A stretch of DNA of 64,000 nt from Patescibacteria group bacterium (lineage in GTDB: Bacteria > Patescibacteriota > Patescibacteriia > UBA2591 > UBA4787), in contig JAQUSN010000001.1 of assembly GCA_028715115.1 (NCBI GenBank), positions 3,314-67,313 of the forward strand, in the 5' to 3' direction. Positions 2,690-44,915 of the stretch are shown piece by piece. A model generated the notes under the pieces. The model had not been told where the DNA came from, did not search any database, and worked only from the letters and a program-made list of their open reading frames with translations. Position 1 is the stretch's first letter. The number at the start of each line of letters is the position of its first letter. Position numbers and translations under genes: made by a program.

Positions 2690-2850
2690 TGCCTGCCGGC
2701 AACTAAAATTTTGCCTGCCCGCCATAAGCCAGTCGAAATATTTTTGCCGTTTATTATTAGCAAGGTATGTCTAAATTTTATTTGCTATAACATCTGACAG
2801 GCGATGGCAGGCGGGTGCATCCCGTGAGTCCGACTATAGTCGGACTTTTA
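2690..2850 (-). promoter_or_regulatory. pheT leader containing a GC-rich inverted-repeat pair bracketing a 77-nt AT-rich segment, plus the 18-bp palindrome GTCCGACTATAGTCGGAC
   Basis: gcctgcccgccataagcc at 2713-2730 and ggcgatggcaggcggg at 2800-2815 can pair as a long-range stem with a 2-nt bulge. Palindrome at 2828-2845. Confidence 0.3.
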
Positions 2851-5375: not shown

Positions 5376-6431
5376 TTAAAATTGTCTTAAAAACCTTAAA
5401 TCACCGCCATTAAACCATCTAATGTCATCAACTTTATGACGCATCATCACCAACCGATCTAAACCGATGCCAAAAGCAAAACCAGTATATTGAGGCTGGA
5501 CCTGCCTGCCGGCAGGCAGGTAGCCAGCAGCACGCAAAACATTGGGATGAATCATGCCACAACCGAGCATTTCGACCCAACCGCTTTGACCGCAAACAGG
5601 ACAACCCTGGCCACCACATCTAAGACAAGAAAAATCTAATTCAAAACTTGGTTCAGTAAAAGGAAAATAGCTTGGTCTAAGCCTAACTTCGACGTCGCGA
5701 CCAAATAAATAATGCAAAAAAGTCTTTAAAGTATGAAGTAGGTTAGCTACGGAAACGTTTTTATCAACCACAAATCCTTCAATTTGGTATAAACTATGTT
5801 CGTGTCTAGCATCCGTCGCTTCGTGACGATAGCATTTGCCGATAACGCAAACCTTGAGTGGCGGTTTTTGTTTCTCCATTACCCTAACCTGCATCGCCGA
5901 AGTATGCGCCCTTAAAAGCAATCTGCCATTTTTTGATGGTTGATGATTGAGCCAAAATGTATCCCACATGTCGCGCGCCGGATGATTAGCGGGAATATTT
6001 AAAACATCAAAATGATAATGTTCGTTCTCGACCTCTGGCCCCTCTAGCACCTGCCAACCCATGGAGTGAAAAATGTCAGCTACTCGCATCTTCATTTGCG
6101 TGTGTGGGTGTAAATGACCGAGCTTAATCGTCTGATCAGTTAAATTTAAATTCAAGTCCGGCAAATCGTCGACTTGTCGAGAATCAGCCACTGATAAATC
6201 ATTTTTTCTATTATTTATAGTTGACTCTAAAATATTTTTTACCTCATTGATAAGTCGTCCCATTTCTGCCTTCTCTTGTGGAGTCATATCTTTTATCTTT
6301 ATGCTAAAATTCCGCAATTGCCCGTTGCGTCCTAAATATTTGCGCCACAATTCTTCTAATGAATTAAAGCCGCCCGCCGTTCTAATTTCTTGCAGCGCTG
6401 AATTTTTTAAATTTTCCAAAGACTCTTTCAT
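5376..6431 (-). CDS. pheS: phenylalanine--tRNA ligase alpha subunit
   Basis: 351 aa with class II aaRS motifs (FTEPSFELDF, GCGMIHPNVL, GFAFGIGLDR). Confidence 0.9.
   Translation of the reverse strand: MKESLENLKNSALQEIRTAGGFNSLEELWRKYLGRNGQLRNFSIKIKDMTPQEKAEMGRLINEVKNILESTINNRKNDLSVADSRQVDDLPDLNLNLTDQTIKLGHLHPHTQMKMRVADIFHSMGWQVLEGPEVENEHYHFDVLNIPANHPARDMWDTFWLNHQPSKNGRLLLRAHTSAMQVRVMEKQKPPLKVCVIGKCYRHEATDARHEHSLYQIEGFVVDKNVSVANLLHTLKTFLHYLFGRDVEVRLRPSYFPFTEPSFELDFSCLRCGGQGCPVCGQSGWVEMLGCGMIHPNVLRAAGYLPAGRQVQPQYTGFAFGIGLDRLVMMRHKVDDIRWFNGGDLRFLRQF
5502..5521. repeat. perfect 20-nt GC-rich palindrome CCTGCCTGCCGGCAGGCAGG inserted in frame in pheS
   Basis: Encodes the extra residues (LPAGRQ) relative to the conserved PheS C-terminal alignment. 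Same GCCTGCC/GGCAGGC core as the other GC mini-elements. Confidence 0.6.
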
Positions 6432-16956: not shown

Positions 16957-18594
16957 TTATTGCATCACTTGTCCATCCGGATACCATTCAGCGTCAGGAA
17001 TGGTATTAATGTTTGATTGTTTGTATTCCAGACGATTAAAAACATCCATACTGGGAATGGCGCGTTTAGTGCCGCCATCAATCACATAAATAGCCGGACT
17101 TGAAGCGTATTTAATTAAACTTCCGTCAGGTCGATTACCGCGGTATTTTCCGGCCGGCATATTTTCCGCCGATTGATTGCCTAAAAAATTAAAACTCTTA
17201 ATCATCATCTTAAAAGTTGTTTTAAAGTTCGCCTCTTGCGCCAAACCTAAATTATAAGTCAAGATATACATTTTATTATCCTTGCCCACATAAACATTTA
17301 AATGATCTGGGCTCCAAACTCCCGGCTGGCCGCTGACCACCGCGTCAGCCACCTGATCAGAGGCAACGTCGGTTGATTTTTTTAAATACCACTCGCGCGG
17401 CGTCAAGCGATCAAAATTATCTTCCACGGAAACTTCAAAAAATTCATCGGTGTTGGTAACGACCATCACTTGACTGTCGTCGGTTTCCGGCAAAGATTTA
17501 ACCAACCAATTACCCGGATAAAAAATCGTATAAGACCAAATCGAATTGGTAAAAACCTTTGTCAGGCCAGACATGGCTAGGGTGCCGTCGGTATGCAACG
17601 GATCTGACAGGCTGGCCACTTCTAAACCATCTTGTTGACCATCACCATCAGTGTCGGGATTATTTATGTTGGTTTGATAAATCGCTTCTTCGGTATCAGT
17701 TAACCCATCATTATCTTGATCGACAGTTGAAAAAATCTGCGGAGCCACCTGTACATCATTGGTAGCTGGTTGTATCTTATTTTTTTCTACAACCAAAGCA
17801 AAAGTATCGGCAGGAATAATATCTAAATTGATAGTTAAAACATTTGTAATCGTATCTGGTTGAGCCGATAAGGGCGTCCAAACTCCATCTTTAAGATAGG
17901 CCAACTTAATGTCTGCTTCCCAAGCTTTATCAACCGCTGAATCATGATAAGAGAAGGTTAAAATGGCAGCTTTTTTAAGCGCCGGAATAACCGATAATTT
18001 AAAAGCTTCGGGCGCTCTCGGCAATATTTGATAAGTATTATCGGTAATAGTCGAGGGCTCTGGAACAAGCACAATCGTCTGTCCTTGATCTAGAGCACCA
18101 GCGGGAAAATCAAATTCAGCTGTAATAATTTTAGGTTGCGGGTTCTGTGAACTAGCTAGATCGGTAATATCAGCGGTTAACTTTAACTCCGCCGATTGAT
18201 TTAAATTAGCCCTAGTTTGTGTGTTTGTTTGCGTATTAATATCCTTGGGCGCTTGCAGATAGTTCTTTGCCCAAAATAAAAAATAAAATAAACCGCCGAA
18301 GACAACCACTATCGTCAAGCCTATCGCGCCAATGGTAATTATTTTATTTTTTTTCTTTTTCGCCGTTAAAATCTCTTGGCTGTCAACGTTAAGACTGGCC
18401 GAACCTGACAAAATTGACGGCGCCGGCTTATTTTTTTTATAACGATTGGGCATCACTGAAATAAACTCCTCGTCTGACTCTACTGGCGGTTTCGTCGGAG
18501 TCGGTTGAGTAGAAGCTGATTGGGCTTGAGACGGTTGGACCGGAGTCGAGGATTGTGGCTGCGAAGATTGTGGAGTTGATAAATTATCAAACAT
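16957..18594 (-). CDS. secreted/anchored protein with an N-terminal Q/S/P-rich low-complexity region, one TM helix and thrombospondin-type-3-like Ca-binding repeats
   Basis: 545 aa. DQDNDGLTDTEEAIYQTNINNPDTDGDGQQDGLE. Confidence 0.6.
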   Translation of the reverse strand: MFDNLSTPQSSQPQSSTPVQPSQAQSASTQPTPTKPPVESDEEFISVMPNRYKKNKPAPSILSGSASLNVDSQEILTAKKKKNKIITIGAIGLTIVVVFGGLFYFLFWAKNYLQAPKDINTQTNTQTRANLNQSAELKLTADITDLASSQNPQPKIITAEFDFPAGALDQGQTIVLVPEPSTITDNTYQILPRAPEAFKLSVIPALKKAAILTFSYHDSAVDKAWEADIKLAYLKDGVWTPLSAQPDTITNVLTINLDIIPADTFALVVEKNKIQPATNDVQVAPQIFSTVDQDNDGLTDTEEAIYQTNINNPDTDGDGQQDGLEVASLSDPLHTDGTLAMSGLTKVFTNSIWSYTIFYPGNWLVKSLPETDDSQVMVVTNTDEFFEVSVEDNFDRLTPREWYLKKSTDVASDQVADAVVSGQPGVWSPDHLNVYVGKDNKMYILTYNLGLAQEANFKTTFKMMIKSFNFLGNQSAENMPAGKYRGNRPDGSLIKYASSPAIYVIDGGTKRAIPSMDVFNRLEYKQSNINTIPDAEWYPDGQVMQ

Positions 18595-25543: not shown

Positions 25544-25765
25544 CTAGCTCTTCAAGGCGCCAGTTTTAATCAAAAACTCGCGCTTAGCCTGATCGCTCTT
25601 GCGTCGTAAAGCGCTAATTTTTCTCGCTCGCGAAGTAGTTGTTCGAGAACGAAAACGGCGGCCTTTCACTTCTTTGACTAGGCCACTGCGCACTACGCTT
25701 TGATTGAAGCGTCGAATCATTCCCTCGGTCGATTCGCCAGCTTTTTTCTTAACTTCGATTGTCAT
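25544..25765 (-). CDS. rpsU: 30S ribosomal protein S21
   Basis: MTIEVKKKAGESTEGMIRRFNQSVVRSGLVKEVKGRRF... -35/-10 TTTACA-17-TATAAT and an AGAGGTGA RBS upstream on the minus strand. Confidence 0.85.
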   Translation of the reverse strand: MTIEVKKKAGESTEGMIRRFNQSVVRSGLVKEVKGRRFRSRTTTSRARKISALRRKSDQAKREFLIKTGALKS

Positions 25766-34580: not shown

Positions 34581-35264
34581 TTAAATAACGTATCGACCGC
34601 CCTTGATTTGATCGCCGATAACCATGCCGTGATCTAAGGTAATTACTCGACGTTTTAATAAATTAACAATTTCTCGATTATGACTCACCAGTAAAATAGT
34701 CGTACCGAATTTATTAATTTTTAAAAGCAAATCAATTATATCTCTGGTATTAATGGAGTCGAGATTGCCAGTCGGCTCATCGGCAATTAAAATTTTTGGC
34801 TTATTGGCAATGGCTCGGGCAATAGCTACGCGCTGCGCCTCGCCAGCCGATAATTGATGAGGCCAACGATTGGCCTTACTTTCTACGCCAACAATGCGTA
34901 AAATTTGCGGAACCATAGCTTTTATTTTTTTTTCCGGAGTACCGACTACTTCAAGGGCAAAAGCAACGTTTTCGTAAACGTTTTTTTTGGGCAATAATTT
35001 AAAATCCTGAAAGACCACACCCACCTGACGGCGTAAATATGGTATTTCTTGACTATTAATATCAGTGATATCCCAGCCGCCAATGATGATTTTGCCCTGG
35101 GTGGCCTTTTCTTCGGCAATAAGCAATTTTATAACCGTGGTTTTGCCGGCACCTGATTGGCCAACCAGGGAAACAAACTCGCCCGCCTCAACACTAAAAG
35201 AAACATTACGCAAAGCATGCGTATTTGGCGGATAGAATTTACTAATGTTGATTAATTTAATCAT
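34581..35264 (-). CDS. ABC transporter ATP-binding protein (FtsE/LolD-like)
   Basis: Walker A GQSGAGKTT, signature LSAGEAQRVAIARA, Walker B ILIADEPT. Confidence 0.8.
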   Translation of the reverse strand: MIKLINISKFYPPNTHALRNVSFSVEAGEFVSLVGQSGAGKTTVIKLLIAEEKATQGKIIIGGWDITDINSQEIPYLRRQVGVVFQDFKLLPKKNVYENVAFALEVVGTPEKKIKAMVPQILRIVGVESKANRWPHQLSAGEAQRVAIARAIANKPKILIADEPTGNLDSINTRDIIDLLLKINKFGTTILLVSHNREIVNLLKRRVITLDHGMVIGDQIKGGRYVI

Positions 35265-35276
35265 TTAATTTTTTTC

Positions 35277-35332
35277 TGGAGCCGAGGGTGAGGATCGAAC
35301 TCACGACCTATGGTTTACGATACCGTTGCCCC
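35277..35332 (-). pseudogene. 3' remnant of a tRNA-Thr-like gene (D-stem 3' side through CCA, anticodon CGU)
   Basis: rc = GGGGCAACGGTATCGTAAACCATAGGTCGTGAGTTCGATCCTCACCCTCGGCTCCA. Its acceptor 3' strand CCTCGGC matches the isolated 5' fragment GCCGAGGTAGCTC at 35625-35637. Confidence 0.5.
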
Positions 35333-35347
35333 GCCTGCCATCGCCCT

Positions 35348-35420
35348 AGCCCGCGGTCGGAATCGAACCGACAACCTACGGTTTACGATACCGTTGCTCT
35401 ACCAGTTGAGCTACACGGGC
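35348..35420 (-). tRNA. tRNA-Thr (anticodon CGU)
   Basis: rc = GCCCGTGTAGCTCAACTGGTAGAGCAACGGTATCGTAAACCGTAGGTTGTCGGTTCGATTCCGACCGCGGGCT. 7-bp acceptor, loop ATCGTAA. Flanked by GGCGATGGCAGGCGGGG (35329-35346) and CCTGCCCGCCATAG (35426-35439). Confidence 0.85.
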
Positions 35421-35444
35421 TCAGGCTATGGCGGGCAGGTCTAC

Positions 35445-35528
35445 CCTACTTCGAGCTTATTAATTAAGCTCGAACGGGCCGTCCAGTTTTTTTCAAAAAC
35501 TGGAATAGGCCAATTGAGCTATCTGGGC
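35445..35528. repeat. conserved double-hairpin repeat (TTCGAGCTTA-N-TAAGCTCGAA, CGGGCCGT, CCAGTTTTT-N3-AAAAACTGG, AATAGG) fused to a 19-nt tRNA 5' fragment (GCCCAGATAGCTCAATTGG on the minus strand)
   Basis: About 80% identical to 41280-41358. The hairpin core is also at 40671-40690. Confidence 0.7.
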
Positions 35529-35624
35529 AAAAGTGGCGGGGCAAGGCTGCCCCGACGTTTTAGTCGGTCCGATGACTCCGACGAGTATCGGACTCCGTCG
35601 GAGGACTCCGACTGTAACGTCGGA

Positions 35625-35637
35625 GAGCTACCTCGGC
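35625..35637 (-). pseudogene. isolated tRNA 5' fragment GCCGAGGTAGCTC (identical to nt 1-13 of tRNA-Thr(UGU) at 40605-40617, plus 2 nt of its upstream flank)
   Basis: rc of gagctacctcggc. Followed on the minus strand by hairpin-rich sequence homologous to 40690-40760. Confidence 0.5.
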
Positions 35638-35820
35638 ATTAACACTCAGTCAGCCTATTAATATAATACACTAGGCTGAAAATTTTTCAATTGGAGCGGG
35701 TAACGGCCTGCCTGCCCTGACTGCCGTCAGGCGGGCGGTAGGCAGGGAATTGAATCTTTACTTGGGAAGTCCTAAAAGTTTTTGCAATCCGCCAAATTGC
35801 GGAGAAGTAGTGAATTTTTG

Positions 35821-35895
35821 TGGAGCGGGCGACCGGATTCGAACCGGCGACCTTCTGCTTGGGAAGCAGACATTCTACCACTGAACTACGCCCGC
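35821..35895 (-). tRNA. tRNA-Gly (anticodon CCC), CCA encoded
   Basis: rc = GCGGGCGTAGTTCAGTGGTAGAATGTCTGCTTCCCAAGCAGAAGGTCGCCGGTTCGAATCCGGTCGCCCGCTCCA. Confidence 0.85.
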
Positions 35896-35936
35896 TTAAT
35901 CAAAAGGGATATATCTTGGCTCGCAAAAAACCGGAT

Positions 35937-35968
35937 CCTCGAAAAAGATATTCACTGCCAACTGGCAG
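35937..35968 (-). terminator. putative intrinsic terminator downstream of def (CTGCCAGTTGGCAG plus TCTTTTTCG)
   Basis: 14-nt perfect palindrome at 35955-35968 followed by a U-rich tract on the minus strand. Confidence 0.35.
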
Positions 35969-36020
35969 ATCATTCTTTTCCGGGAGACGCATTCTGCCGT
36001 TGAACCATACCCGCCTAAAA

Positions 36021-36635
36021 TTATTTTTTAGAGCTATTCTTAATTTTTTTTAATTGTCCTCTTAATTTGGCTTTTTGATAAAAACTTAGTCTATCAATCA
36101 ATAATTTACCGACTAAATGATCCATCTCGTGTAAAATTACTCTAGCTAAAAGATCTTCAGCCCTAATAATGGTTTTTTGTCCGCTAGAAAAATCTATATT
36201 TTCAATTTCTATTTTTTCCGGCCGTTTGACTAATACGGATACTCCTGGCACGCTTAAACATCCTTCTTCTAATTTTTTGCATTTTTTTGACTTCTTAATT
36301 ATTTTGGGATTAATTAAAATAATCGGTCCTTCGCCAATATCAACGATGGCGATTTTTTTAGCCACTCCCACTTGATTAGCGGCTAGACCAACTCCATCAG
36401 CATCGCCTAAAGTCGCCAGCATATTGGCAATTAGTTTTCTCGCCTCATCGTCAATAGCTAAAACCGACTTAGCCGTCTGACGCAAAACTGGATGCCCATA
36501 AGCTACAATATCTAAAATTTGCGAGGTAAAATTTTTTATCTCGCTATTAATTATCGGTATAGCATTGATTCTCTTGCCTTTTGAGGATAAAGTCATAAGT
36601 AAATAATATATTAGCAAAATCTGCCGATTTGTCAA
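36021..36635 (-). CDS. def: peptide deformylase
   Basis: GLAANQVGV, EGCLSVPG and HEMDHL motifs. Confidence 0.85.
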   Translation of the reverse strand: MTNRQILLIYYLLMTLSSKGKRINAIPIINSEIKNFTSQILDIVAYGHPVLRQTAKSVLAIDDEARKLIANMLATLGDADGVGLAANQVGVAKKIAIVDIGEGPIILINPKIIKKSKKCKKLEEGCLSVPGVSVLVKRPEKIEIENIDFSSGQKTIIRAEDLLARVILHEMDHLVGKLLIDRLSFYQKAKLRGQLKKIKNSSKK

Positions 36636-36699
36636 AATTAGTTAGACAATTATCGACGTTGGGTATATACTTAAACTATTAAATAGTAATATAGATTTT

Positions 36700-37260
36700 A
36701 TGATTCTCTTTTGGGTCATTTTAATTGTCGTTGTTTTGTTTATTCTTTGGCTGATTGGCGTTTTTAATTCGTTGGTTATGGCTAAAAACCGAACCAATGA
36801 AGCTTGGGCTGACATAGAAGTACAATTAAAACGCCGCTATGATTTAATCCCCAATTTAGTTGAAACCGTCAAAGGCTATGCGACGCACGAACGTGAACTT
36901 TTTGAAAAGGTTACCTTGGCCCGCACTAAAGCTATGGGCGCACAAACCCTTAAAGAGCATGGCGAAGCGGAAAATATGCTAACCGGCACGCTGAAATCTT
37001 TATTCGCCGTAGCGGAAAATTATCCAGACCTTAAGGCCAACCAAAACTTTTTAGAATTACAAAGAGAATTAGTTGACGCTGAAGATAAAATCCAGGCTGC
37101 TCGCCGATTTTATAACAGCAACGTCAGAGACTTTAACACAAAAATAGAAATCTTCCCGAATCGCATTGTGGCTGGTTGGTTAAAATTCACTTCTCGCGAC
37201 TTCTTTGAACTGGGCGAAAATGACGCAGCCGCCAAAGAACCGGTTAAAGTAAAATTTTAA
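36700..37260 (+). CDS. lemA: LemA family protein
   Basis: N-terminal TM. NEAWADIEVQLKRRYDLIPNLVETVKGYATHERELFEKV. Confidence 0.8.
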   Translation: MILFWVILIVVVLFILWLIGVFNSLVMAKNRTNEAWADIEVQLKRRYDLIPNLVETVKGYATHERELFEKVTLARTKAMGAQTLKEHGEAENMLTGTLKSLFAVAENYPDLKANQNFLELQRELVDAEDKIQAARRFYNSNVRDFNTKIEIFPNRIVAGWLKFTSRDFFELGENDAAAKEPVKVKF

Positions 37261-37264
37261 TCAC

Positions 37265-38173
37265 ATGAATCTCTATAACAATATTTCTTCCAATATTCGC
37301 AAGACATGGTTGCTTATGACAATTTTTTTGATTTTGATTATCGGTATCGGCTATTGGTTGTCCTATGTTTATAATTCTTATGATATTTTGATTATTGCCG
37401 TTATTTTTAGCGTAGGTACCAGCTTTCTTTCCTATTGGTATTCTGATAAAATCGTGTTGGGCTTAAATAAAGCGCAGGAAATAAAAAAACAAGACGCACC
37501 CGAGCTTTATCGCTTGATTGAAAATCTCTGTATTACTGCCGGTTTGCCGACGCCAAAAGTATATGTTCTTGAAGAACCAGCTATGAATGCTTTTGCCACC
37601 GGACGAAATGCCCAACACGCGGTTATTGCGGTTACTCGCGGCCTATTAGAAAAGCTAGACAAAACCGAATTAGAAGGGGTTATTGCTCATGAATTATCAC
37701 ATATTGGCAATCGCGACATGTTACTGCAAACTGTAGTGGTAATTCTGGTTGGCATGCTTACTATGGCTTGTAATTTATTTTTTAGATTGAGTTTTTATGG
37801 GGGCCGACGGCGCTCTGACAATAACGAAGGTGGCGCGGCCGGCGCGATATTTTTAGTCTTGGGTTTGATTGCTATTATTCTAGCGCCGATTTTAGCCAGA
37901 TTGCTTAGTTTAGCTATTTCGCGCAAGAGAGAGTTTTTGGCTGACAGCTCCGGCGCCATGCTTACTCGCTATCCTGACGGCTTAGCCAGCGCTCTAGAAA
38001 AAATAGGCCAAGATCAAGCGCCGCTTAAAGTCGCTAATCCAGCTATGGCCCATCTTTACATCGACAATCCGTTTCACAATCAGCAAAAAATAAATTGGTT
38101 TAACAAGCTATTCCTGACTCACCCGCCGATGGAAGATCGAATCAGGGTTTTAAGGCAAATGAATATTCAATAA
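37265..38173 (+). CDS. htpX: M48 zinc metalloprotease HtpX
   Basis: HELSHIGNRDM (HExxH). Four TM helices. Confidence 0.85.
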   Translation: MNLYNNISSNIRKTWLLMTIFLILIIGIGYWLSYVYNSYDILIIAVIFSVGTSFLSYWYSDKIVLGLNKAQEIKKQDAPELYRLIENLCITAGLPTPKVYVLEEPAMNAFATGRNAQHAVIAVTRGLLEKLDKTELEGVIAHELSHIGNRDMLLQTVVVILVGMLTMACNLFFRLSFYGGRRRSDNNEGGAAGAIFLVLGLIAIILAPILARLLSLAISRKREFLADSSGAMLTRYPDGLASALEKIGQDQAPLKVANPAMAHLYIDNPFHNQQKINWFNKLFLTHPPMEDRIRVLRQMNIQ

Positions 38174-38265
38174 GGTGACCCTCCGACTCGCAAACTCGCT
38201 CCGGGTTATTTTAGCTCCGCTTAATACCCGCTGACTTGGCATTGAAGCTAAAATAAAAAATATAA

Positions 38266-38306
38266 AGTAAAACAAAAATCCTGAGTTAATCGGGATTTTT
38301 TGTTTA
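38266..38306 (+). terminator. intrinsic terminator after htpX
   Basis: AAATCCTGA-GTTAA-TCGGGATTT followed by TTTTGTTT. Confidence 0.45.
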
Positions 38307-38527
38307 GAAAATTTCTGGCGGGATAAACTTCGTTTCACTACACTTATCTCATCTTTCTGCTGTTAAACTTCACCAACACCTCATTAAGCGAAGTGTTAGC
38401 GGAGTTTAATGGCGAGACGTTCGGGTTAAGCGCCCCGATAGCAAAACTTTATAAGGGTATTTTAACGTTATTTTTGCTGAGATCCTAATGTTTACGGGTC
38501 GCAGCTAAAACAGAAAGAATATAAATA

Positions 38528-39256
38528 TTATAAGTTATCTTGAAATAATCCCGTTTTAAGTTGCATAATATATCTTTCCACAAGATCTATATTTTCCTTT
38601 GTCGCGATTATACTAGTGGGTGAGAACTTATAAATCTGGGATCTATTACTTAAAAGCTGGTTGAATAAATTTGACAGCTCTCTCGGTATGTTGTTATTTT
38701 TAGCTTCAATATTGACTAAAGATTGGGTGGCGCCGTGAGTTTTCGCACCTTTTATATTATTACCTTGTAGAGGATTTTTAAAAAGTGTAGCATGTAAAGC
38801 CTGTTCGAGAGCTTGAAATAAATTATATGCTTTAACCTTTTCGGTACTTACGGCCTTAGCGGACTTGATAAAATCTTCGGCTAATCTTATCTTTTCACAT
38901 GCATTTTTTTTGTTCGGGATAAAGTTAAAATAAATTGTCCAGTATTTGTTTATGGTGACCACAGCAATAAAACCAAAGTTGTCAAAAATTTCTTCAGGAA
39001 CCGATATATTCTTTATTTTATGTTTTGCTAGTTCTTGAGCGGTAATAGGAGCGCCGGGCACTAAAGGGCCACCCACCGAGGGATCAATAGTGATTTTAAG
39101 TTCGGTTTCTCCATTCAGGCGAATTTCTGTTTTTTCCGGTCTAAATATTATTAAAATTGCGTAAATAGGATCGGTAAAGTTGCGACGAGCAACTTCAGGC
39201 ATAATCCACAATTCATGGATTTGTCTGATTAAATTTTGAGTAGCGATAGTGTTCAT
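38528..39256 (-). CDS. hypothetical protein
   Basis: 242-aa ORF with host-like AT-rich composition. No recognisable motifs. Confidence 0.5.
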   Translation of the reverse strand: MNTIATQNLIRQIHELWIMPEVARRNFTDPIYAILIIFRPEKTEIRLNGETELKITIDPSVGGPLVPGAPITAQELAKHKIKNISVPEEIFDNFGFIAVVTINKYWTIYFNFIPNKKNACEKIRLAEDFIKSAKAVSTEKVKAYNLFQALEQALHATLFKNPLQGNNIKGAKTHGATQSLVNIEAKNNNIPRELSNLFNQLLSNRSQIYKFSPTSIIATKENIDLVERYIMQLKTGLFQDNL

Positions 39257-39335
39257 GTCCTAATTAACTACTGCGCCATGGAAAAAAATAATATTTAAAA
39301 ATAAAGATTCGGGTCATGCCGATAAAAAATTTTAA

Positions 39336-39409
39336 TGGCGGGGGTGGCAGGAATCGGACCCGCATTATCGGTTTTGGAGACCGGTGTTCTACCACTGAAC
39401 TACACCCCC
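39336..39409 (-). tRNA. tRNA-Trp (anticodon CCA), CCA encoded. Atypical T-loop TCCGATT and one C-A mismatch in the anticodon stem.
   Basis: rc = GGGGGTGTAGTTCAGTGGTAGAACACCGGTCTCCAAAACCGATAATGCGGGTCCGATTCCTGCCACCCCCGCCA. Confidence 0.7.
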
Positions 39410-39805
39410 GTATTTGATGGTTTTGCCTACCTGCCGCAGGAGACTAGTGCTCTGCTTCACCCCACCTAAACAAGCCGGGCAAATTTAACTACGCCCCCAG
39501 GCTGGTAGTACACTGTTTATTTAGTTTCCTTGTGAACAATATGCTTTCGGCAAGAACGGCAATATTTTTTCAATTGCAAACGCTCTTTGACGTTTTTTTT
39601 ATTTTTCGTGGAAAAATAATTAAGCCGATGGCATCCCGTACATTCTAATTTTATCAAATTTTCTTGACTCATAGAAAAATGGTTATGTATTAATAATATT
39701 TTCTAAAACTAAACCGTCCCCCTTAATTAAAGTAAAGCTCCGGAAAAATCATCTCGAGATTACTCGCTCGACCACCTCTCTTGAATTTTAGGACAAGTAA
39801 TATTC

Positions 39806-40459
39806 TTATTCTTTCTCGGGGTTAAAAATTTCTTGCGAGCCAGCTTCTATTTGGTTGTCCGGAGGGAAAGATCGAGAAAATTCAATTTGCTTACCAAGAA
39901 TATTGGCGAGCCTTTGTTTCCCATCTTCTGTAAAACTGCCCGTAAACCCCACCTTCCCTTTGTCCGCCTCTATTCCACGCAGTTCACCGAGATCACCGAA
40001 TTCGTAAACCTCCTTTAGCTTTTCCTCGGGTATGCCCAAAAGGAGAAACAGCTTCTCTACTTGCATTGTTTTAATCTTACCGGGGCCACCTGATGGTATA
40101 TGCACGGAATTGTATTCTGGAAAAACAAAAGCTCTACAAGGAACGCCAACCTTGGCGCTAGCCCGAAGATCGTCTAGAAACTTCTGGTCTTTCGCTTCTT
40201 CTTTTGCAATCCACTCTTCAGCAGCTTCATAATCTCTTTTTGTCGGCTGAGCGTCTTTATTTAGCGAGCCAATCGTTTTGTAATCAAACACTTTTCCGCT
40301 TGCTTCAACCTCCATTCTAACTGCCGCGAACGATCTTGCTATGGTTTCTACCCTCTTTTCTCTCGGCACTTTATACCATGGTACTATATTGGGTTCAGGC
40401 CTTCTGACCGTGTTCTCTGGTGATGATACCGCCTCATGTTTTCTAAAAGGATTAAACAT
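39806..40459 (-). CDS. hypothetical protein with intermediate GC (about 46%), located between tRNA genes
   Basis: 217-aa ORF. Composition differs from both the AT-rich host genes and the 55% GC cassettes. Confidence 0.5.
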   Translation of the reverse strand: MFNPFRKHEAVSSPENTVRRPEPNIVPWYKVPREKRVETIARSFAAVRMEVEASGKVFDYKTIGSLNKDAQPTKRDYEAAEEWIAKEEAKDQKFLDDLRASAKVGVPCRAFVFPEYNSVHIPSGGPGKIKTMQVEKLFLLLGIPEEKLKEVYEFGDLGELRGIEADKGKVGFTGSFTEDGKQRLANILGKQIEFSRSFPPDNQIEAGSQEIFNPEKE

Positions 40460-40544
40460 AGATTTAATAGTTTGATATTAATTTATAACTTCAACCTGGT
40501 CTATCTTATATTTCGACCTTTAAAATTAACATGCCCTTCCCATT

Positions 40545-40617
40545 AGCCGAGGGTCGGAATCGAACCGACAACCTATGGTTTACAAAACCATTGCTCTGCC
40601 TATTGAGCTACCTCGGC
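40545..40617 (-). tRNA. tRNA-Thr (anticodon UGU)
   Basis: rc = GCCGAGGTAGCTCAATAGGCAGAGCAATGGTTTTGTAAACCATAGGTTGTCGGTTCGATTCCGACCCTCGGCT. Confidence 0.85.
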
Positions 40618-40639
40618 ATAGTCAGCTCAGACTAAGGCG

Positions 40640-40760
40640 GACGGGCAGAGCCACTACCGCCCAGTTTTAAGAAAAACTGGAATAGGCTGTTGTCCCGACG
40701 TTTCAGTAGAAAAGTCGGGTCTCCGACCGAAAGCGTCGGAGAGCTAGGGCGGCATGCTCG
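40640..40760. repeat. copy B of the tRNA-associated repeat: hairpin CCAGTTTTAAGAAAAACTGG, hairpin-rich CCCGACG/GTCGGAG segment, and a tRNA-like 5' fragment GCCGCCCTAGCTC
   Basis: Homologous to 35483-35637 (shared CCCGACGTTT, GTCGGAGAGCTA, GGCAT). Degenerate CCTGCCCG-CCGCC motif directly upstream of the tRNA. Confidence 0.55.
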
Positions 40761-40832
40761 CGGTTACAAATCGCGTAACTATTTTTTTCTAGCCAATTTT
40801 CTTGTTTCCTGAATTATACCCATATAAATTCT

Positions 40833-40918
40833 GGTGGGCGGGGCAGGATTTGCACCTGCGAAGGCCGGAGGCCAACAGATTTACAGTCTGCTGCATTTGA
40901 CTACTTTGCTACCCGCCC
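40833..40918 (-). tRNA. tRNA-Tyr (anticodon GUA), class II with a long variable arm, CCA encoded
   Basis: rc = GGGCGGGTAGCAAAGTAGTCAAATGCAGCAGACTGTAAATCTGTTGGCCTCCGGCCTTCGCAGGTGCAAATCCTGCCCCGCCCACCA. Confidence 0.8.
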
Positions 40919-40931
40919 CAATTAACATCTA

Positions 40932-41004
40932 AGCCCGAGGTCGGATTTGAACCGACGACCTACTCCTTACCATGGAGTTGCTCTACCAGCTGAGCTACCC
41001 GGGC
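40932..41004 (-). tRNA. tRNA-Thr (anticodon GGU)
   Basis: rc = GCCCGGGTAGCTCAGCTGGTAGAGCAACTCCATGGTAAGGAGTAGGTCGTCGGTTCAAATCCGACCTCGGGCT. Confidence 0.85.
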
Positions 41005-41256
41005 ATGTTGTAAATATTGTTTTAAAATTTTCTGCTTTAATTTGGCGCTATATAAACTTTTAAAGTATTTTTCTTGTTCCATCGCTTCAACTCGTGTATC
41101 AAATGATTCTTGATGAATAACAATAAACGGCCTTCTATTTTTTGTCGATATTACCTGCCCACTATTATGTTTTTTAACTCTCGCCACTAGGTCATCAGTT
41201 TGCCCAACATATAATTTTTTATCTTTCAGGCTATATAAGATATAAACAAAATACAT
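40960..41256 (-). CDS. GIY-YIG domain endonuclease (small, URI-type). The 3' end of the ORF runs into the tRNA-Thr(GGU) gene.
   Basis: FVYILYSLKDKKLYVGQTDDLVARVKKHN...E matches GIY / YIG / R / H-N / E spacing. The last roughly 15 codons are tRNA sequence. Confidence 0.65.
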   Translation of the reverse strand: MYFVYILYSLKDKKLYVGQTDDLVARVKKHNSGQVISTKNRRPFIVIHQESFDTRVEAMEQEKYFKSLYSAKLKQKILKQYLQHARVAQLVEQLHGKE

Positions 41257-41279
41257 ATTTTGCTACTTGCTTTACCCTA

Positions 41280-41358
41280 ATTCGAGCTTATTAGATAAGC
41301 TCGAACGGGCCGTCCAGTTTTAAGAAAAACTGGAATAGGCCAGCTGAGCTACCCGGGC
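41280..41358. repeat. copy C of the tRNA-associated repeat plus an exact 19-nt duplicate of the tRNA-Thr(GGU) 5' end (GCCCGGGTAGCTCAGCTGG, with 2 nt of upstream flank)
   Basis: ttcgagcttattagataagctcgaacgggccgtccagttttaagaaaaactggaataggccagctgagctacccgggc. Confidence 0.7.
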
Positions 41359-41401
41359 ATAAAAACATGATTAAAAATTATAGCAGATATTCGTTAAAAA
41401 A

Positions 41402-41668
41402 TCAAGAGGTTTTCTTAGAAAAAACTTTCTTACAAAAAGCAGCAAATTTTGAACAACCGACTCTTGTATCCTTAAAAAATTTTTGCCACCAAGCTGCCCA
41501 CTCGCGCATAAACCTTTGCTGCATTAAATTCTTTTTAATTTCCGCTTGTAGTTCTGATCTGGTATCTAGCGGGATAGAGGCAACTAAAGGCAGTTTTTTG
41601 AAAATTATTGCCCAAATAATAATTAGCGCTCCAACTAAAATTATTAATAATAGAATATTGAAAATCAT
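41402..41668 (-). CDS. small membrane protein (N-terminal TM, basic C-terminus), co-directional with tpiA
   Basis: 88 aa. The overlapping antisense ORF 41367-41672 is judged spurious. Confidence 0.45.
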   Translation of the reverse strand: MIFNILLLIILVGALIIIWAIIFKKLPLVASIPLDTRSELQAEIKKNLMQQRFMREWAAWWQKFFKDTRVGCSKFAAFCKKVFSKKTS

Positions 41669-44799: not shown

Positions 44800-44915
44800 C
44801 AAGGGAGCGACCTGCCCGCCTATTGCCTATCCAAGAGTTAATCTAAACAAGAATTAAAGAAACAATATTCTTTCTAGGTTTTAACTCCATGGGACGGCGT
44901 TGGCAGGCGGGGCGA
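44800..44915 (-). promoter_or_regulatory. glyQS leader carrying the same GC-rich inverted-repeat pair as the pheT leader (CCTGCCCGCC-TAT ... GGCG-TT-GGCAGGCGGGG) around a 75-nt AT-rich segment. Upstream -10 TATAAT abuts the palindrome GGATGTTATACATCC.
   Basis: Arms at 44808-44820 and 44896-44912. Palindromes at 44973-44987 and CCGCCAGCCGGCGG at 44945-44958. Confidence 0.3.

What the first reader, a model, noticed from the sequence alone, without database searches (positions are those of the whole stretch)
40620..40760. Third copy of the tRNA-associated repeat upstream of tRNA-Thr(UGU), with a tRNA-like 13-nt 5' fragment GCCGCCCTAGCTC
This copy shares with locus 35483-35637 the hairpin CCAGTTTTAAGAAAAACTGG, the CCCGACGTTT and GTCGGAGAGCTA blocks, and a terminal tRNA-like fragment preceded by AT. 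So all three tRNA-Thr isoacceptor genes in the window (CGU, UGU, GGU) carry a member of this family immediately 5' of the gene. The family appears to target tRNA-Thr specifically.
Basis: seen in the sequence. Interest (0 to 1): 0.6.

Follow-up and report, generated by a model that had tools for sequence, protein, structure and literature searches.

The report
Mobile-element scar beside a tRNA-Thr gene
The 140-base repeat is the leftover start of an older tRNA-Thr gene followed by GC-rich hairpin modules, probably left when a small mobile cassette linked to a tiny GIY-YIG nuclease gene broke the old gene and supplied a working copy; related Patescibacteria show the same next to many tRNA and tmRNA genes, not only tRNA-Thr.

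Summary
All six tRNAs lie on the minus strand. Window 40618-40755 holds a 13-nt tRNA 5' fragment (GCCGCCCTAGCTC), two GC hairpins, and a CCTATT-hairpin block that matches locus C (41314-41340) at 27 of 27 bases. It aligns with locus A (35422-35637) at 97 of 137 columns.

The Thr-specific reading does not hold. Locus C carries an 85-aa GIY-YIG gene. Its relatives fall into 60 clusters, and 39 of them sit directly beside a tRNA (Val, Gln, Glu, Asn, Leu, Ala, Cys, Thr) or a tmRNA. Many of these have a displaced 5' piece of that RNA gene interrupted by hairpin modules.

A syntenic relative (L009) lacks element B and has an intact tRNA-Thr(UGU) starting ATGCCGTCCTAGCTC. So B marks an insertion of about 1 kb that truncated the resident gene and brought a different tRNA-Thr(UGU).

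At locus A, joining the 13-nt fragment to the 3' fragment after tRNA-Thr(CGU) rebuilds a tRNA-Thr(CGU). Three related genomes show comparable nesting or remnants at that locus.

Best reading: a decayed, ORF-less relic of a tRNA-gene-invading cassette. The mobility mechanism is inferred, not shown. I found no prior description in the searched literature.

The parts
40741..40755 (-). Locus B: AT + GCCGCCCTAGCTC, the 5' remnant (nt 1-13) of the former resident tRNA-Thr(UGU)
   Evidence: Read. It matches 14 of 15 bases of ATGCCGTCCTAGCTC, the start of the intact tRNA-Thr(UGU) at the syntenic position in L009.
40721..40741 (-). Locus B: hairpin module CTCCGAC-GCTTTCG-GTCGGAG
   Evidence: The same module follows TAGCTC in locus A (35625->35606). 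A related module, TCTCCGACCCTACGGGTCGGAGACCCGGAGGG, lies upstream of GIY-YIG ORFs in L058, L081 and L088.
40694..40719 (-). Locus B: second GC hairpin, CCCGAC-TTTTCTACTGAAA-CGTCGGG
   Evidence: Fold. It aligns with ..CGACTAAAACGTCGGG of locus A.
40661..40686 (-). Locus B: CCTATT + hp1 (CCAGTTTT TCTT AAAACTGG). This is a truncated copy of the CCTATT-hp1-ACGGCCC-hp2-TAGG module; ACGGCCC and hp2 are missing.
   Evidence: 27/27 identical to 41340->41314. Module table.
40618..40660 (-). Locus B: GCGGTAGTGG + CTGCCCGTCCGCC (similar to the left arm of the inverted repeat in locus A) + the leader TGAGCTGACTAT of the incoming tRNA
   Evidence: Aligns with GGTAGACCTGCCCGCCATAGCCTGA of locus A. The leader aligns with the L009 leader GTTTGAGCTAAAATG.
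40545..40617 (-). Intact tRNA-Thr(UGU) with acceptor GCCGAGG/CCTCGGC and no encoded CCA. This is the working, probably incoming, copy.
   Evidence: Its acceptor stem differs from the remnant and from the L009 orthologue.
39806..40459 (-). 217-aa ORF of unknown function. It lies inside the ~1 kb present in the window but absent from L009.
   Evidence: no family match; the only hits are an identical MAG protein and one protein at 44% identity. Synteny.
39711..39722 (-). Probable 3' remnant of the resident tRNA-Thr(UGU): GGGGGACGGTTT, against L009 GAGGGACGGCTA
   Evidence: The evidence is weak (20 of 300 shuffles score as well), but the position ~40 nt before rpmG matches L009.
35625..35637 (-). 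Locus A: outer 5' remnant GCCGAGGTAGCTC of the resident tRNA-Thr(CGU)
   Evidence: It pairs with the 3' remnant in the fold. Joined to the 3' remnant, it is called tRNA-Thr(cgt) by ARAGORN.
35537..35625 (-). Locus A: run of CTCCGAC..GTCGGAG and GC hairpin modules
35510..35528 (-). Locus A: second, orphan tRNA 5' fragment GCCCAGATAGCTCAATTGG (nt 1-19, ending at the D-loop GG)
35446..35509 (-). Locus A: complete module CCTATT-hp1-ACGGCCC-hp2-GTAG
35428..35445 (-). Locus A: GGTAGA (D-arm 3' piece) + left inverted-repeat arm CCTGCCCGCCAT
   Evidence: By my base-by-base reading of the and 16 sequences, 11 of 12 positions can pair with 35341->35329.
35348..35420 (-). Intact inner tRNA-Thr(CGU), acceptor GCCCGTG/CGCGGGC
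35329..35341 (-). Locus A: right inverted-repeat arm ATGGCAGGCGGGG
35277..35328 (-). Locus A: 3' remnant of the outer tRNA-Thr(CGU), covering the anticodon arm, T arm, acceptor 3' strand CCTCGGC and an encoded CCA
   Evidence: 24 nt at 96% and 39 nt at 85% to Thr tRNAs. Near-identical to the outer tRNA of L096. Reconstitution.
41340..41360 (-). Locus C: AT + GCCCGGGTAGCTCAGCTGG, a 21-nt perfect direct repeat of the start of tRNA-Thr(GGU)
   Evidence: 21/21.
41277..41339 (-). Locus C: complete CCTATT-hp1-ACGGCCC-hp2-TTAG module, inserted after the D-loop GG of the remnant
41268..41276 (-). Locus C: GGTAAAGCA, the D-arm 3' side of the remnant (L009 has GGTAGAGCA)
40960..41256 (-). GIY-YIG nuclease ORF: an 85-aa core of UPF0213/Slx1 type, read on into the tRNA
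   Evidence: Pfam PF01541, E 1e-16. PDB 1ywl E 2e-9 and 1zg2. Homologues at 56-75% identity. It is the only copy in the window.
40932..41004 (-). Intact tRNA-Thr(GGU)
41377..41405 (-). Promoter-like site TTGATT-17-TATAAT (with TG) upstream of the locus C remnant. It is the likely tRNA operon promoter, now also driving the ORF.
   Evidence: The same arrangement is seen in L009. A similar site lies before locus A at 35690->35663.
39483..39498 (-). 5' remnant of a tRNA-Trp (GGGGGCGTAGTTAAAT) about 75 nt upstream of the intact tRNA-Trp
   Evidence: 1 of 300 shuffles. L009 has a longer Trp remnant at the same place.

Best explanation
Window 40618-40755 is a non-coding, partly decayed relic of a small mobile cassette that inserted into the resident tRNA-Thr(UGU) gene. 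It is not a Thr-specific functional element.

Shown:
- The first ~13 nt of the old gene (GCCGCCCTAGCTC) remain at the left junction.
- They are followed by GC-rich palindromic modules. These are a CTCCGAC..GTCGGAG hairpin, a CCCGAC..GTCGGG hairpin, and a truncated CCTATT-hairpin module.
- Next comes a different, complete tRNA-Thr(UGU) with its own short leader. This is now the working gene.

Shown by comparison:
- The same modules belong to the neighbouring unit at locus C. That unit consists of a tRNA 5' remnant, the CCTATT-hp1-ACGGCCC-hp2 module, an 85-aa GIY-YIG nuclease gene, and an intact tRNA.
- Relatives of that nuclease gene lie directly beside many different tRNA genes and tmRNA genes. 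Displaced tRNA 5' pieces there usually end near nt 25-27 and are interrupted by hairpin modules.

Inferred mechanism:
- The nuclease (or one acting in trans from another copy) breaks a tRNA gene.
- Repair then installs a cassette that carries either the missing 5' part or a whole tRNA of the same anticodon.
- The cell keeps an essential single-copy tRNA, and the broken resident pieces stay behind as flanking scars.
- The insert sits between the tRNA promoter and the tRNA, so it is transcribed with the operon.
- The hairpin leader is then presumably trimmed off by normal tRNA 5' processing.

Copies A and B have lost the nuclease gene, if they ever had one, and B has also lost part of the module. 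I therefore expect B itself to do nothing today beyond being a structured spacer in the Thr-Tyr-Thr precursor.
For: 1. Family membership. B matches C at 27/27, A matches C over 80 nt at 89%, and A matches B at 97/137 columns.

2. The insertion is shown by synteny. L009 is colinear with window 42678-40832 and with rpmG. It has only 27 nt between tRNA-Tyr and an intact tRNA-Thr(UGU) beginning ATGCCGTCCTAGCTC, and it lacks both the modules and the 217-aa ORF.

3. Locus A is a tRNA within a tRNA. The 13-nt 5' piece and the 3' piece after tRNA-Thr(CGU) pair in the fold. Joined, they are called tRNA-Thr(cgt) by ARAGORN.

4. The orthologous locus upstream of FtsE in three relatives shows comparable structures.
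- L096 has an inner Thr(CGU), bracketed by GCCCCGTTAGA/CTAACGGGGT, inside the D loop of an outer gene. That outer gene shares the window's acceptor stem.
- L095 has the insert in the anticodon loop.
- L097 has a 5' remnant plus the same GACCTGCCCGC repeat arm, and also a tRNA-Gly nested in the anticodon of another tRNA-Gly.

5. Link to the nuclease gene.
- Of 60 clusters (90% identity) of its relatives, 21 lie just upstream of tmRNA, 15 just upstream of a tRNA on the same strand, and 3 just downstream of one.
- In at least 12 of 37 loci, the first 12-29 nt of the downstream tRNA recur upstream of the ORF.
- In L009 the ORF stops at the TAG of tRNA nt 8-10; relative P0001 has the same C-terminal ..PG ending.

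6. The CCTATT..ACGGCCC module is conserved across lineages. It has six unrelated but perfectly paired hp1 stems and a compensatory GGCC/GGCC to GGTC/GACC change. In L010-17 and L078 its second stem encloses the whole ORF.

7. Promoter-like sites lie upstream of the remnants at A and C.

8. T4 SegB is a precedent: a GIY-YIG enzyme that cuts a conserved tRNA-gene motif and spreads itself together with tRNA genes.
Against: - B contains no ORF.
- The nested loci in L095, L096 and L097 have no GIY-YIG gene called within the fetched flanks. The nuclease link for ORF-less copies therefore rests on shared modules and proximity.
- The protein is a bare 85-aa catalytic domain with no DNA-binding domain. 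How it could find tRNA genes is unknown, and no activity has been shown.
- Insertion points vary (nt ~11-13, 18-19, 25-27, the anticodon loop, the T loop). This does not fit a classical sequence-specific homing site.
- Only one syntenic relative was available for locus B. It is about 70% identical, so acceptor-stem change by ordinary divergence cannot be fully excluded.
- The proposed 3' remnant of B is statistically weak.
- A genome-wide census of the hairpin could not be done.
Confidence: 0.6

Rival explanations
1. The hairpins are an independent family of GC-rich palindromic repeats, comparable to REP, Rickettsia palindromic elements, or mitochondrial GC clusters and double-hairpin elements. 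They accumulate in any dispensable DNA of this AT-rich genome. On this view the tRNA fragments arose separately, by tRNA gene duplication or replacement through ordinary recombination or gene transfer. The GIY-YIG gene is merely another occupant of the same junk.
For: - Similar GC-rich inverted repeats occur away from tRNAs: CCTGCCCGCC..GGCAGGCGGG at 2714-2815 and 44811-44911, a palindrome at 5501-5520, and TCCGAC..GTCGGA at 2829-2844.
- The nested tRNA loci in L095, L096 and L097 lack a nuclease gene.
- 21 of 60 GIY-YIG clusters have no tRNA or tmRNA next to them.
Against: - The specific CCTATT-hp1 module was found only next to tRNA genes. In most lineages it is next to, or wrapped around, the GIY-YIG ORF.
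- 39 of 60 clusters are tRNA- or tmRNA-adjacent. My estimate, from the general size of such genomes, is that a few percent at most would be expected by chance.
- A and B share the same order of several modules, which argues that they were copied as one composite.
Confidence: 0.22
2. The element is a functional structured 5' leader of the tRNA precursor. It could be a processing signal, a stabiliser, or a protein-binding or regulatory RNA, selected for tRNA expression.
For: - It lies inside the tRNA transcription unit, downstream of promoter-like sites.
- It folds much better than shuffled sequence (z -4.5 and -10.8).
- The hp1 stems covary across lineages.
Against: - It is absent from the syntenic tRNA-Thr(UGU) of L009.
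- B has lost a third of the conserved module.
- No Rfam family matches, even at E up to 5.
- The element contains pieces of dead tRNA genes.
- Covariation in a palindrome is equally expected for a structure that acts at the DNA level.
Confidence: 0.08
3. The interrupted outer genes are real split or intron-containing tRNA genes. After the inner tRNA is cut out, the halves are held together by the inverted repeat and are spliced or used as a two-piece tRNA.
For: - Removing the insert in silico restores a recognisable tRNA in window A, L096 and L097-Gly.
- The inverted repeats bring the two junctions together.
- An archease gene (archease is an RNA-ligase cofactor) sits next to the L097 locus.
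Against: - The outer genes are decayed. There is an anticodon-stem mismatch in window A, a 70-nt insert in the T loop of L096, the anticodon is deleted in L095, and nt 14-65 are missing in B.
- An intact tRNA of the same anticodon is always present.
- There is no group I intron match.
- No bacterial splicing endonuclease for such junctions is known.
Confidence: 0.04
4. The fragments are attachment-site scars of integrase-driven genomic islands or prophages that integrated into tRNA genes and were later mostly deleted.
For: - tRNA and tmRNA genes are the classical integration sites.
- The tRNA-Gly remnant starts in the anticodon loop and lies downstream of the intact gene, as an integrase scar would.
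Against: - Most remnants are 5' fragments lying upstream of the intact gene. This is the opposite of the usual 3' duplication.
- The inserts are only 0.15-1 kb.
- No gene in the insert at B (the 217-aa ORF) or in the fetched nested loci matched an integrase family.
- The junctions are bordered by hairpin modules rather than a simple direct repeat.
Confidence: 0.04

Closest known systems
Phage T4 SegB, a free-standing GIY-YIG homing endonuclease in the tRNA gene cluster (PMC2330249)
   Same: A GIY-YIG gene sits among tRNA genes. The enzyme recognises a conserved tRNA-gene motif. Its spread carries neighbouring tRNA genes with it and erases the recipient's markers.
   Different: - SegB is a ~220-aa site-specific enzyme with a 27-bp site; here the protein is an 85-aa bare domain of the UPF0213/Slx1 type.
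- The host here is a cellular Patescibacteria genome, not a phage.
- The resident gene is left behind as nested 5' and 3' fragments riddled with hairpin modules.
- No activity has been shown.
GIY-YIG-encoding, non-intron insertions in rRNA genes of CPR bacteria (PMC11270868)
   Same: The same bacterial group and the same protein family. The insertions are in structured RNA genes, are not group I or II introns, and are often at the top or base of stem-loops.
   Different: - Those insertions are in rRNA genes and were described as sparse and probably not spread by homing.
- Here the targets are tRNA and tmRNA genes.
- Here the insert comes with a duplicated 5' part or a whole replacement gene.
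Mobile GIY-YIG ORFs of fungal mitochondria that insert at the end of a gene and bring a replacement copy of the displaced gene end (from my own knowledge: Allomyces atp6, Paquin et al. 1994; not checked here)
   Same: A selfish ORF breaks an essential gene and carries the piece needed to keep it functional, leaving the old piece as a pseudo-fragment.
   Different: Those involve protein-coding genes, 3' ends and organelle genomes. No hairpin modules sit inside the remnant.
Small GC-rich palindromic repeats: REP/BIME, Rickettsia palindromic elements, mitochondrial GC clusters and double-hairpin elements (from my own knowledge)
   Same: They are short, non-coding, multicopy hairpin-forming modules in an AT-rich genome. 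They can sit inside RNA genes.
   Different: - The module here has conserved single-stranded motifs (CTATT, ACGGCCC).
- It has a fixed position relative to tRNA D loops.
- In several lineages it encloses a nuclease ORF.
Integrase-mediated islands in tRNA/tmRNA genes, and archaeal split or intron-containing tRNA genes (from my own knowledge; reviews listed)
   Same: tRNA genes act as targets, partial tRNA duplicates flank an insert, and gene halves are brought together by complementary flanks.
   Different: - No integrase is present.
- Mostly 5' rather than 3' duplicates are seen.
- The inserts are tiny.
- The outer halves are decayed and are made redundant by an inner intact gene.

Membership tests
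Free-standing GIY-YIG homing-endonuclease cassette (Seg-like) | Encodes a GIY-YIG catalytic domain with the conserved Tyr/Arg/His/Glu positions | tested here: met
   Met for locus C: Pfam PF01541 E 1e-16, with invariant Y16, G18, R26, H30 and E62 in the alignment. Element B itself has no ORF.
Free-standing GIY-YIG homing-endonuclease cassette (Seg-like) | A separate DNA-binding domain that gives a long, specific recognition site | tested here: not met
   The protein and its relatives are 80-90 aa and consist of the catalytic domain only. The nearest solved structures are the UPF0213 proteins 1ywl and 1zg2, with a weak match to SLX1.
Free-standing GIY-YIG homing-endonuclease cassette (Seg-like) | Presence/absence polymorphism at the same locus in relatives | tested here: inconclusive
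   Element B and the 217-aa ORF are absent from syntenic L009. The GIY-YIG ORF itself is present in both genomes. No empty site for the ORF was recovered.
Free-standing GIY-YIG homing-endonuclease cassette (Seg-like) | The enzyme cleaves the allele that lacks the element | not testable with these tools
   This needs purified protein and tRNA-gene DNA substrates.
Miniature non-autonomous element / palindromic repeat | Short, non-coding and present in several copies per genome | tested here: met
   Three copies of 65-215 nt in 64 kb. Further inverted-repeat elements lie at 2714-2815 and 44811-44911.
Miniature non-autonomous element / palindromic repeat | Defined terminal inverted repeats and a target-site duplication | tested here: inconclusive
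   The complete module starts with CCTATT and ends with (A/T)(A/T)TAGG, and it sits after a GG. B lacks the right end. A 'GG' duplication cannot be told apart from the target sequence.
tRNA intron (group I, or protein-spliced bulge-helix-bulge type) | Interrupts a tRNA gene that is intact once the insert is removed, and has a ribozyme core or splice motif | tested here: not met
   There is no Intron_gpI or other Rfam match, even at E up to 5. At B the resident gene lacks nt ~14-65. At A the rebuilt gene has a mismatched anticodon stem.
Integrase-type island scar at a tRNA gene | An integrase gene, and a direct repeat of the tRNA 3' part at the far end of the insert | tested here: not met
   The repeats are 5' parts at A, B, C and Trp. 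The only ORF in the B insert has no family match.
Any described RNA family (Rfam 15) | Match to a covariance model at or near the gathering score | tested here: not met
   Only the six tRNAs pass. The best other hit is ar35 at 23.6 bits against a cutoff of 45.

The most novel reading that the evidence does not exclude
Patescibacteria may carry a previously undescribed class of selfish cassettes that replace RNA genes.

The parts:
- A minimal Slx1/UPF0213-like GIY-YIG nuclease.
- Conserved hairpin modules, namely the CCTATT-hp-ACGGCCC type and CCCGCC..GGCGGG-type inverted repeats.

The proposed action:
- The cassette breaks tRNA and tmRNA genes at structural landmarks (D stem or loop, nt 26, the anticodon loop, the T loop).
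- The landmarks may be recognised through DNA secondary structure rather than sequence.
- The cassette then installs its own copy of the same gene.
- This makes the cassette indispensable and leaves nested tRNA-in-tRNA wrecks.

Elements A and B in this window would be ORF-less members moved in trans.
Probability: 0.3. Interest if true: 0.8.

Novelty: new variant of a known kind. Interest (0 to 1): 0.62.

Why it matters
If this is right, single-copy tRNA and tmRNA genes in these very small genomes are repeatedly invaded and replaced by tiny cassettes.

Practical consequences:
- It affects tRNA annotation. Fragments and nested genes confuse gene finders and break assemblies; contigs L090 and L091 end right at this locus.
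- It complicates phylogeny based on tRNA genes.

Biological consequences:
- It bears on how selfish DNA persists in reduced genomes. By breaking an essential gene and supplying the substitute, the element makes itself indispensable.
- It suggests a testable role for the very widespread but uncharacterised UPF0213-type bare GIY-YIG proteins.
- It links them to the unexplained GIY-YIG insertions already seen in CPR rRNA genes.

For this particular 140-nt stretch the practical message is modest. It is a scar, not a Thr-specific device.

Tried and rejected
- **Rfam.** A gathering-score scan of the whole window and a permissive scan of 35200-41500 found only the six tRNAs. A known ribozyme, riboswitch, T-box or intron is rejected.
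- **Genome-collection pattern scan.** GGCCTATTMCAG..CTGKACGGCCC gave one chance hit in an Acetobacteraceae MAG.
- **Viral-contig scans.** Two scans, for the CTCCGAC module and for the CCTATT module, found nothing.
- **Exact look-ups.** The window GIY-YIG ORF is not on record. Looking up rpmG and the 217-aa ORF returned only the source MAG and short contigs with the same arrangement, so no population variants were found.
- **The 217-aa ORF.** It has no Pfam or NCBIfam match. Its one distant homologue has no tRNA context, so it is left as unexplained cargo.
- **Exact inverted repeats bracketing intact tRNAs.** These are clear in L095 and L096 but are not a general property of the 42 tRNAs tested. 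I dropped the idea that every replacement tRNA is repeat-bracketed.
- **hp1 as a derivative of the tRNA-Thr(UGU) anticodon arm.** A gapped alignment suggested CAGTTTTGTAAACTG against CAGTTTTTCTTAAAACTG. I rejected it as probably coincidental, because hp1 has unrelated sequences in other lineages.
- **Remnant detection.** The automated chaining misses diverged or heavily interrupted remnants, so its counts are lower bounds. L094 was unusable at the key site because of masked Ns.
- **Weak GIY-YIG-like match at 2642-2770.** The translation is not convincing.
Full report
**1. What is there**

ARAGORN and Rfam place six tRNA genes in the window, all on the minus strand. They are Thr(CGU) 35347-35421, Gly(CCC), Trp, Thr(UGU) 40545-40617, Tyr, and Thr(GGU) 40932-41004. 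The finding therefore has to be read on the minus strand.

From 40755 down to 40618 the sequence is:
- AT|GCCGCCCTAGCTC
- the hairpin CTCCGAC-GCTTTCG-GTCGGAG
- the hairpin CCCGAC..GTCGGG
- ACAACAG
- CCTATT plus the hairpin CCAGTTTT-TCTT-AAAACTGG
- GCGGTAGTGGCTCTGCCCGTCCGCCTTAGTCTGAGCTGACTAT
- and then the tRNA.

The similarity to the other two loci is far beyond chance:
- B against C is 27/27 (E 1e-9).
- A against C is 80 nt at 89% (E 3e-17).
- A against B is 97 of 137 aligned columns.
- The hairpin pattern has 3 matches in 64 kb against 0.09 expected: loci A and B, plus a two-mismatch site at 25560 that is not tRNA-adjacent. Locus C was found by the other searches.

The region is strongly structured, with z = -4.5. 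No Rfam family other than tRNA matches, even permissively.

**2. The three loci are not equivalent**

*Locus C.* Reading 41360->40932, it consists of:
- a promoter-like TTGATT-17-TATAAT;
- a perfect 21-nt copy of the start of tRNA-Thr(GGU), ending at the D-loop GG;
- a two-hairpin module, CCTATT-hp1-ACGGCCC-hp2-TTAG;
- GGTAAAGCA, the other side of the D arm;
- a 297-nt ORF;
- and the intact tRNA.

The ORF is a GIY-YIG nuclease domain (Pfam E 1e-16). Its nearest solved structures are the UPF0213 proteins 1ywl and 1zg2, with a faint match to SLX1. The E. coli and B. subtilis members of this family, YhbQ and YazA, are classed with Slx1. It is the only such ORF in the window.

*Locus A.* Reading 35637->35277, it consists of:
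- GCCGAGGTAGCTC;
- several CTCCGAC-type hairpins;
- a second tRNA 5' fragment, GCCCAGATAGCTCAATTGG;
- the complete two-hairpin module;
- GGTAGA;
- CCTGCCCGCCAT;
- the intact tRNA-Thr(CGU);
- ATGGCAGGCGGGG;
- and a tRNA 3' portion ending CCTCGGCTCCA.

In the fold, the outermost 5' piece pairs with that 3' portion. Joining the two gives a sequence that ARAGORN calls tRNA-Thr(cgt). Locus A is therefore a working tRNA gene nested inside a broken one of the same anticodon.

*Locus B.* It is a shortened version of A. It lacks the second fragment, ACGGCCC and the second hairpin.

**3. B marks an insertion**

L009 comes from a related Patescibacteria contig whose GIY-YIG protein is 78% identical. It is colinear with window 42678-40832 and with rpmG, and it has the same remnant-module-ORF-tRNA-Thr(GGU)-tRNA-Tyr arrangement.

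After tRNA-Tyr, however, L009 has only 27 nt and then an intact tRNA-Thr(UGU) beginning ATGCCGTCCTAGCTC, followed directly by rpmG. The window instead has:
- the 14/15-identical fragment ATGCCGCCCTAGCTC;
- the modules;
- a tRNA-Thr(UGU) with a different acceptor stem (GCCGAGG/CCTCGGC);
- a 217-aa ORF of unknown function;
- and, about 40 nt before rpmG, GGGGGACGGTTT, which resembles the 3' end of the L009 gene (the last point is weak).

The simplest reading is that about 1 kb entered the resident gene after nt ~13, removed its middle, and brought a substitute gene.

**4. The same thing recurs at the orthologous Thr(CGU) locus**

I used FtsE orthologues to fetch the locus from relatives.

- *L096.* The outer gene has the same acceptor stem as the window's outer remnant. 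It is interrupted in its D loop by GCCCCGTTAGA, a complete tRNA-Thr(CGU), and CTAACGGGGT. It carries a further 70-nt GC-rich insert in its T loop.
- *L095.* An inner tRNA-Thr(CGU), bracketed by GCCCGTTAGAAA/TTTCTAACGGGC, sits in the anticodon loop of an outer gene. That outer gene closely resembles the inner gene of L096.
- *L097.* A 5' remnant and the same GACCTGCCCGC repeat arm as in the window precede tRNA-Thr(CGU). In addition, a tRNA-Gly(CCC) is nested inside the anticodon of another tRNA-Gly.

Removing the inserts in silico restores tRNAs that ARAGORN recognises for L096 and L097-Gly. L095 was not restored, because its anticodon is deleted.

The outer genes are decayed and an intact inner gene is always present. 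I therefore regard the outer genes as dead, not as split genes awaiting splicing.

**5. The link to the nuclease, and the test of Thr specificity**

A metagenome scan with the protein alignment returned 80 loci, which fall into 60 clusters at 90% identity. Combining ARAGORN with Rfam gives:
- 21 clusters with the ORF directly upstream of tmRNA, usually in the order smpB-ORF-ssrA;
- 15 directly upstream of a tRNA on the same strand (Glu, Gln, Asn, Val, Ala, Leu, Thr, and one tRNA with an insert);
- 3 directly downstream of a tRNA, with a 3' remnant after the ORF in at least L037;
- 21 with neither. Five of these are truncated contigs that carry the tmRNA-type flank.

Only one cluster is next to tRNA-Thr.

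In at least 12 of 37 loci, the first 12-29 nt of the downstream tRNA are repeated before the ORF. By eye, these remnants usually run to nt 25-27 and are interrupted by GC hairpins. Examples:
- L046: TGCGGGATCGTCTAATGG[hairpins]TAGGACA-cattt-ATG.
- L081: TCGGGGGTAG[TCTCCGAC..GAGACCCGGAGGG]CTCAGTGGCAGAGCA-attcct-ATG.

The L081 module is of the same kind as the one that follows TAGCTC in window loci A and B.

In L009 the ORF stops at the TAG of tRNA nt 8-10, and relative P0001 has the same C-terminal ..PG ending. The ORF and the tRNA start are thus physically overlapped.

Within the window, tRNA-Trp also has a 5' remnant, and tRNA-Gly has a possible 3' remnant. The claim that the family targets tRNA-Thr is not supported.

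**6. The conserved module**

The CCTATT-hp1-ACGGCCC-hp2-(A/T)TAGG module occurs in window A and C, L009, L004/L016, L010-15, L017 (twice, in tandem), L018 and L078.

- hp1 has six unrelated stem sequences, all perfectly paired.
- It is flanked by an invariant CTATT and by ACG(G/A)CCC.
- The short outer helix GGCC/GGCC changes to GGTC/GACC in L017.
- In L010-17 and L078 the second stem, GTTCAAAATTTCTGAGA/TCTCAGAAATTTTGAA, encloses the entire ORF.
- In other loci the ORF is enclosed by CCCGCC..GGCGGG-type inverted repeats with no tRNA nearby.
- Similar repeats without an ORF lie at window 2714-2815 and 44811-44911.

The module is thus part of the framework of the nuclease element. Copies without the ORF look like non-autonomous derivatives. 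Whether the structure acts in DNA or in RNA cannot be decided from sequence.

**7. Mechanism: what is shown and what is inferred**

Shown:
- insertion relative to a syntenic relative;
- nesting of an intact tRNA gene in fragments of a same-anticodon gene;
- recurrence at the same locus, with different junctions and different inner genes;
- a strong association of the nuclease gene family with tRNA and tmRNA 5' ends;
- shared modules between the ORF-bearing and ORF-less copies;
- placement downstream of promoter-like sites.

Inferred:
- a nuclease-made break in the resident gene;
- repair that installs the cassette;
- retention because the cassette now supplies the only working copy of a single-copy essential gene;
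- expression of the ORF from the tRNA promoter;
- removal of the hairpin leader by ordinary tRNA processing.

The nearest characterised precedent is T4 SegB. It cuts a conserved tRNA-gene motif and drives inheritance of itself plus tRNA genes.

The main difficulties are these:
- The protein here is a bare catalytic domain.
- The junctions vary (nt 11-13, 18-19, 25-27, the anticodon loop, the T loop).
- The nested loci L095-L097 have no nuclease gene in the fetched flanks.

A structure-guided choice of targets, as for Slx1-type enzymes, would fit the variety of junctions. It would also fit the published remark that CPR rRNA insertions sit at the tops or bases of stem-loops. This is speculation.

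**8. Comparison with the literature, and novelty**

Seven full-text searches found three relevant items:
- T4 SegB;
- a study of CPR rRNA-gene insertions that notes GIY-YIG proteins in non-intron insertions (PMC11270868);
- general reviews of disrupted archaeal tRNA genes.

None described GIY-YIG genes or hairpin modules at tRNA/tmRNA 5' ends in Patescibacteria, or tRNA-in-tRNA nesting. The library is incomplete, so this is absence of evidence only.

I class the finding as a new variant of a known kind: a free-standing nuclease cassette and palindromic non-autonomous elements, with an unusual target and an unusual way of preserving the target's function.

**9. Verdict**

The Thr-specific interpretation is replaced by a broader and more interesting one. 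The 140-nt stretch itself is a decayed scar with no likely present function.

The window is from MAG GCA_028686935.1, contig JAQUBC010000004.1 (Patescibacteria group bacterium).

Noticed in passing
window 2714-2815 and 44811-44911 (+ strand): Two further elements have the same inverted-repeat arms as those bracketing tRNA-Thr(CGU) (CCTGCCCGCC(A/T)A.. and ..GGCG(A/T)TGGCAGGCGGG). Here they enclose about 80 nt of AT-rich sequence with no tRNA and no ORF. The first is followed by a TCCGAC..GTCGGA hairpin at 2829-2844.
   Followed up: partly
window 5501-5520: A perfect 20-nt GC palindrome, CCTGCCTGCCGGCAGGCAGG, related to the repeat arms above. A similar CCTGCCT..GGCAGG cluster lies at 35707-35745, between tRNA-Gly and locus A.
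   Followed up: no
window 39806-40459 (- strand): A 217-aa ORF with no Pfam or NCBIfam match. It lies inside the ~1 kb that the syntenic relative L009 lacks. Database hits are only an identical MAG protein (PHV78_00215) and one protein at 44% identity in an unrelated context. It may be cargo of the insert.
   Followed up: partly
window 40960-41004 (- strand); L009 1750-1770: The GIY-YIG ORF overlaps the tRNA gene. In L009 it stops at the TAG of tRNA nt 8-10 (protein ends ..PG), and relative P0001 has the same ending. In the window the frame differs, and the ORF runs 13-14 codons further into tRNA-Thr(GGU).
   Followed up: partly
window 39483-39498 (- strand); L009 2253-2288: tRNA-Trp also has a displaced 5' fragment upstream: 16 nt in the window and about 36 nt, reaching the anticodon loop, in L009. 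No nuclease ORF lies between the fragment and the gene.
   Followed up: partly
window 35692-35775 (- strand); L096 1680-1701; L097 1166-1345: tRNA-Gly(CCC) is followed by a decayed 3' portion of another tRNA-Gly (CTTCCCAAG .. ATTCAATTCC .. CCCGCTCCA) with a GC hairpin inside it. The window match is weak (25 of 300 shuffles do as well). L096 has a comparable 3' remnant. L097 has a tRNA-Gly nested exactly in the anticodon of an outer tRNA-Gly.
   Followed up: partly
L001, L006, L013, L019-L021, L025-L033, L036, L038-L040, L043, L050, L056, L066, L075, L077: The commonest context of this nuclease family is smpB - GIY-YIG ORF - tmRNA. The conserved flanks are (T)CGCCTAAA(G/A)CATG at the start codon, and GGCTAAAAC-hairpin-TCGCCCGAAC-hairpin-TTTTAGGGG running into the tmRNA 5' end. 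L001 has a second, different GIY-YIG gene just after the tmRNA.
   Followed up: partly
L053 and L061, 1829-2061 (- strand): A group I intron (Rfam 74.5 bits) lies on the opposite strand immediately after a GIY-YIG ORF that is flanked by CCCGCCAAAATTT/AAATTTAGGCGGG. It was not examined further.
   Followed up: no
L076 1747-1865: A tRNA match spans 119 nt, meaning an intact-looking tRNA with an insert of about 45 nt, directly downstream of a GIY-YIG ORF. The upstream remnant there also carries a hairpin in its D loop.
   Followed up: no
window 17908-17925 (+ strand): An 18-nt perfect match to the anticodon arm of tRNA-Gly(CCC) (AATGTCTGCTTCCCAAGC, E 5e-5) lies inside a 545-aa ORF on the opposite strand. 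It may be chance.
   Followed up: no
window 40759-40775 (+ strand): A terminator-like hairpin (CGCGGTTACAAATCGCG followed by a T run) points antisense to the tRNA operon, directly next to the 5' remnant of locus B. No + strand gene lies nearby.
   Followed up: no
L097 2191-2595: An archease gene (archease is a cofactor of the RtcB RNA ligase) lies next to FtsE, about 700 nt from the nested tRNA-Gly and tRNA-Thr genes. This is of interest only if the split-tRNA rival were true.
   Followed up: no
L090 and L091 (Logan contigs): Independent assemblies of the same organism break about 140 nt upstream of the 217-aa ORF, which is inside tRNA-Thr(UGU). This fits the repeats here confusing assemblers.
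   Followed up: no
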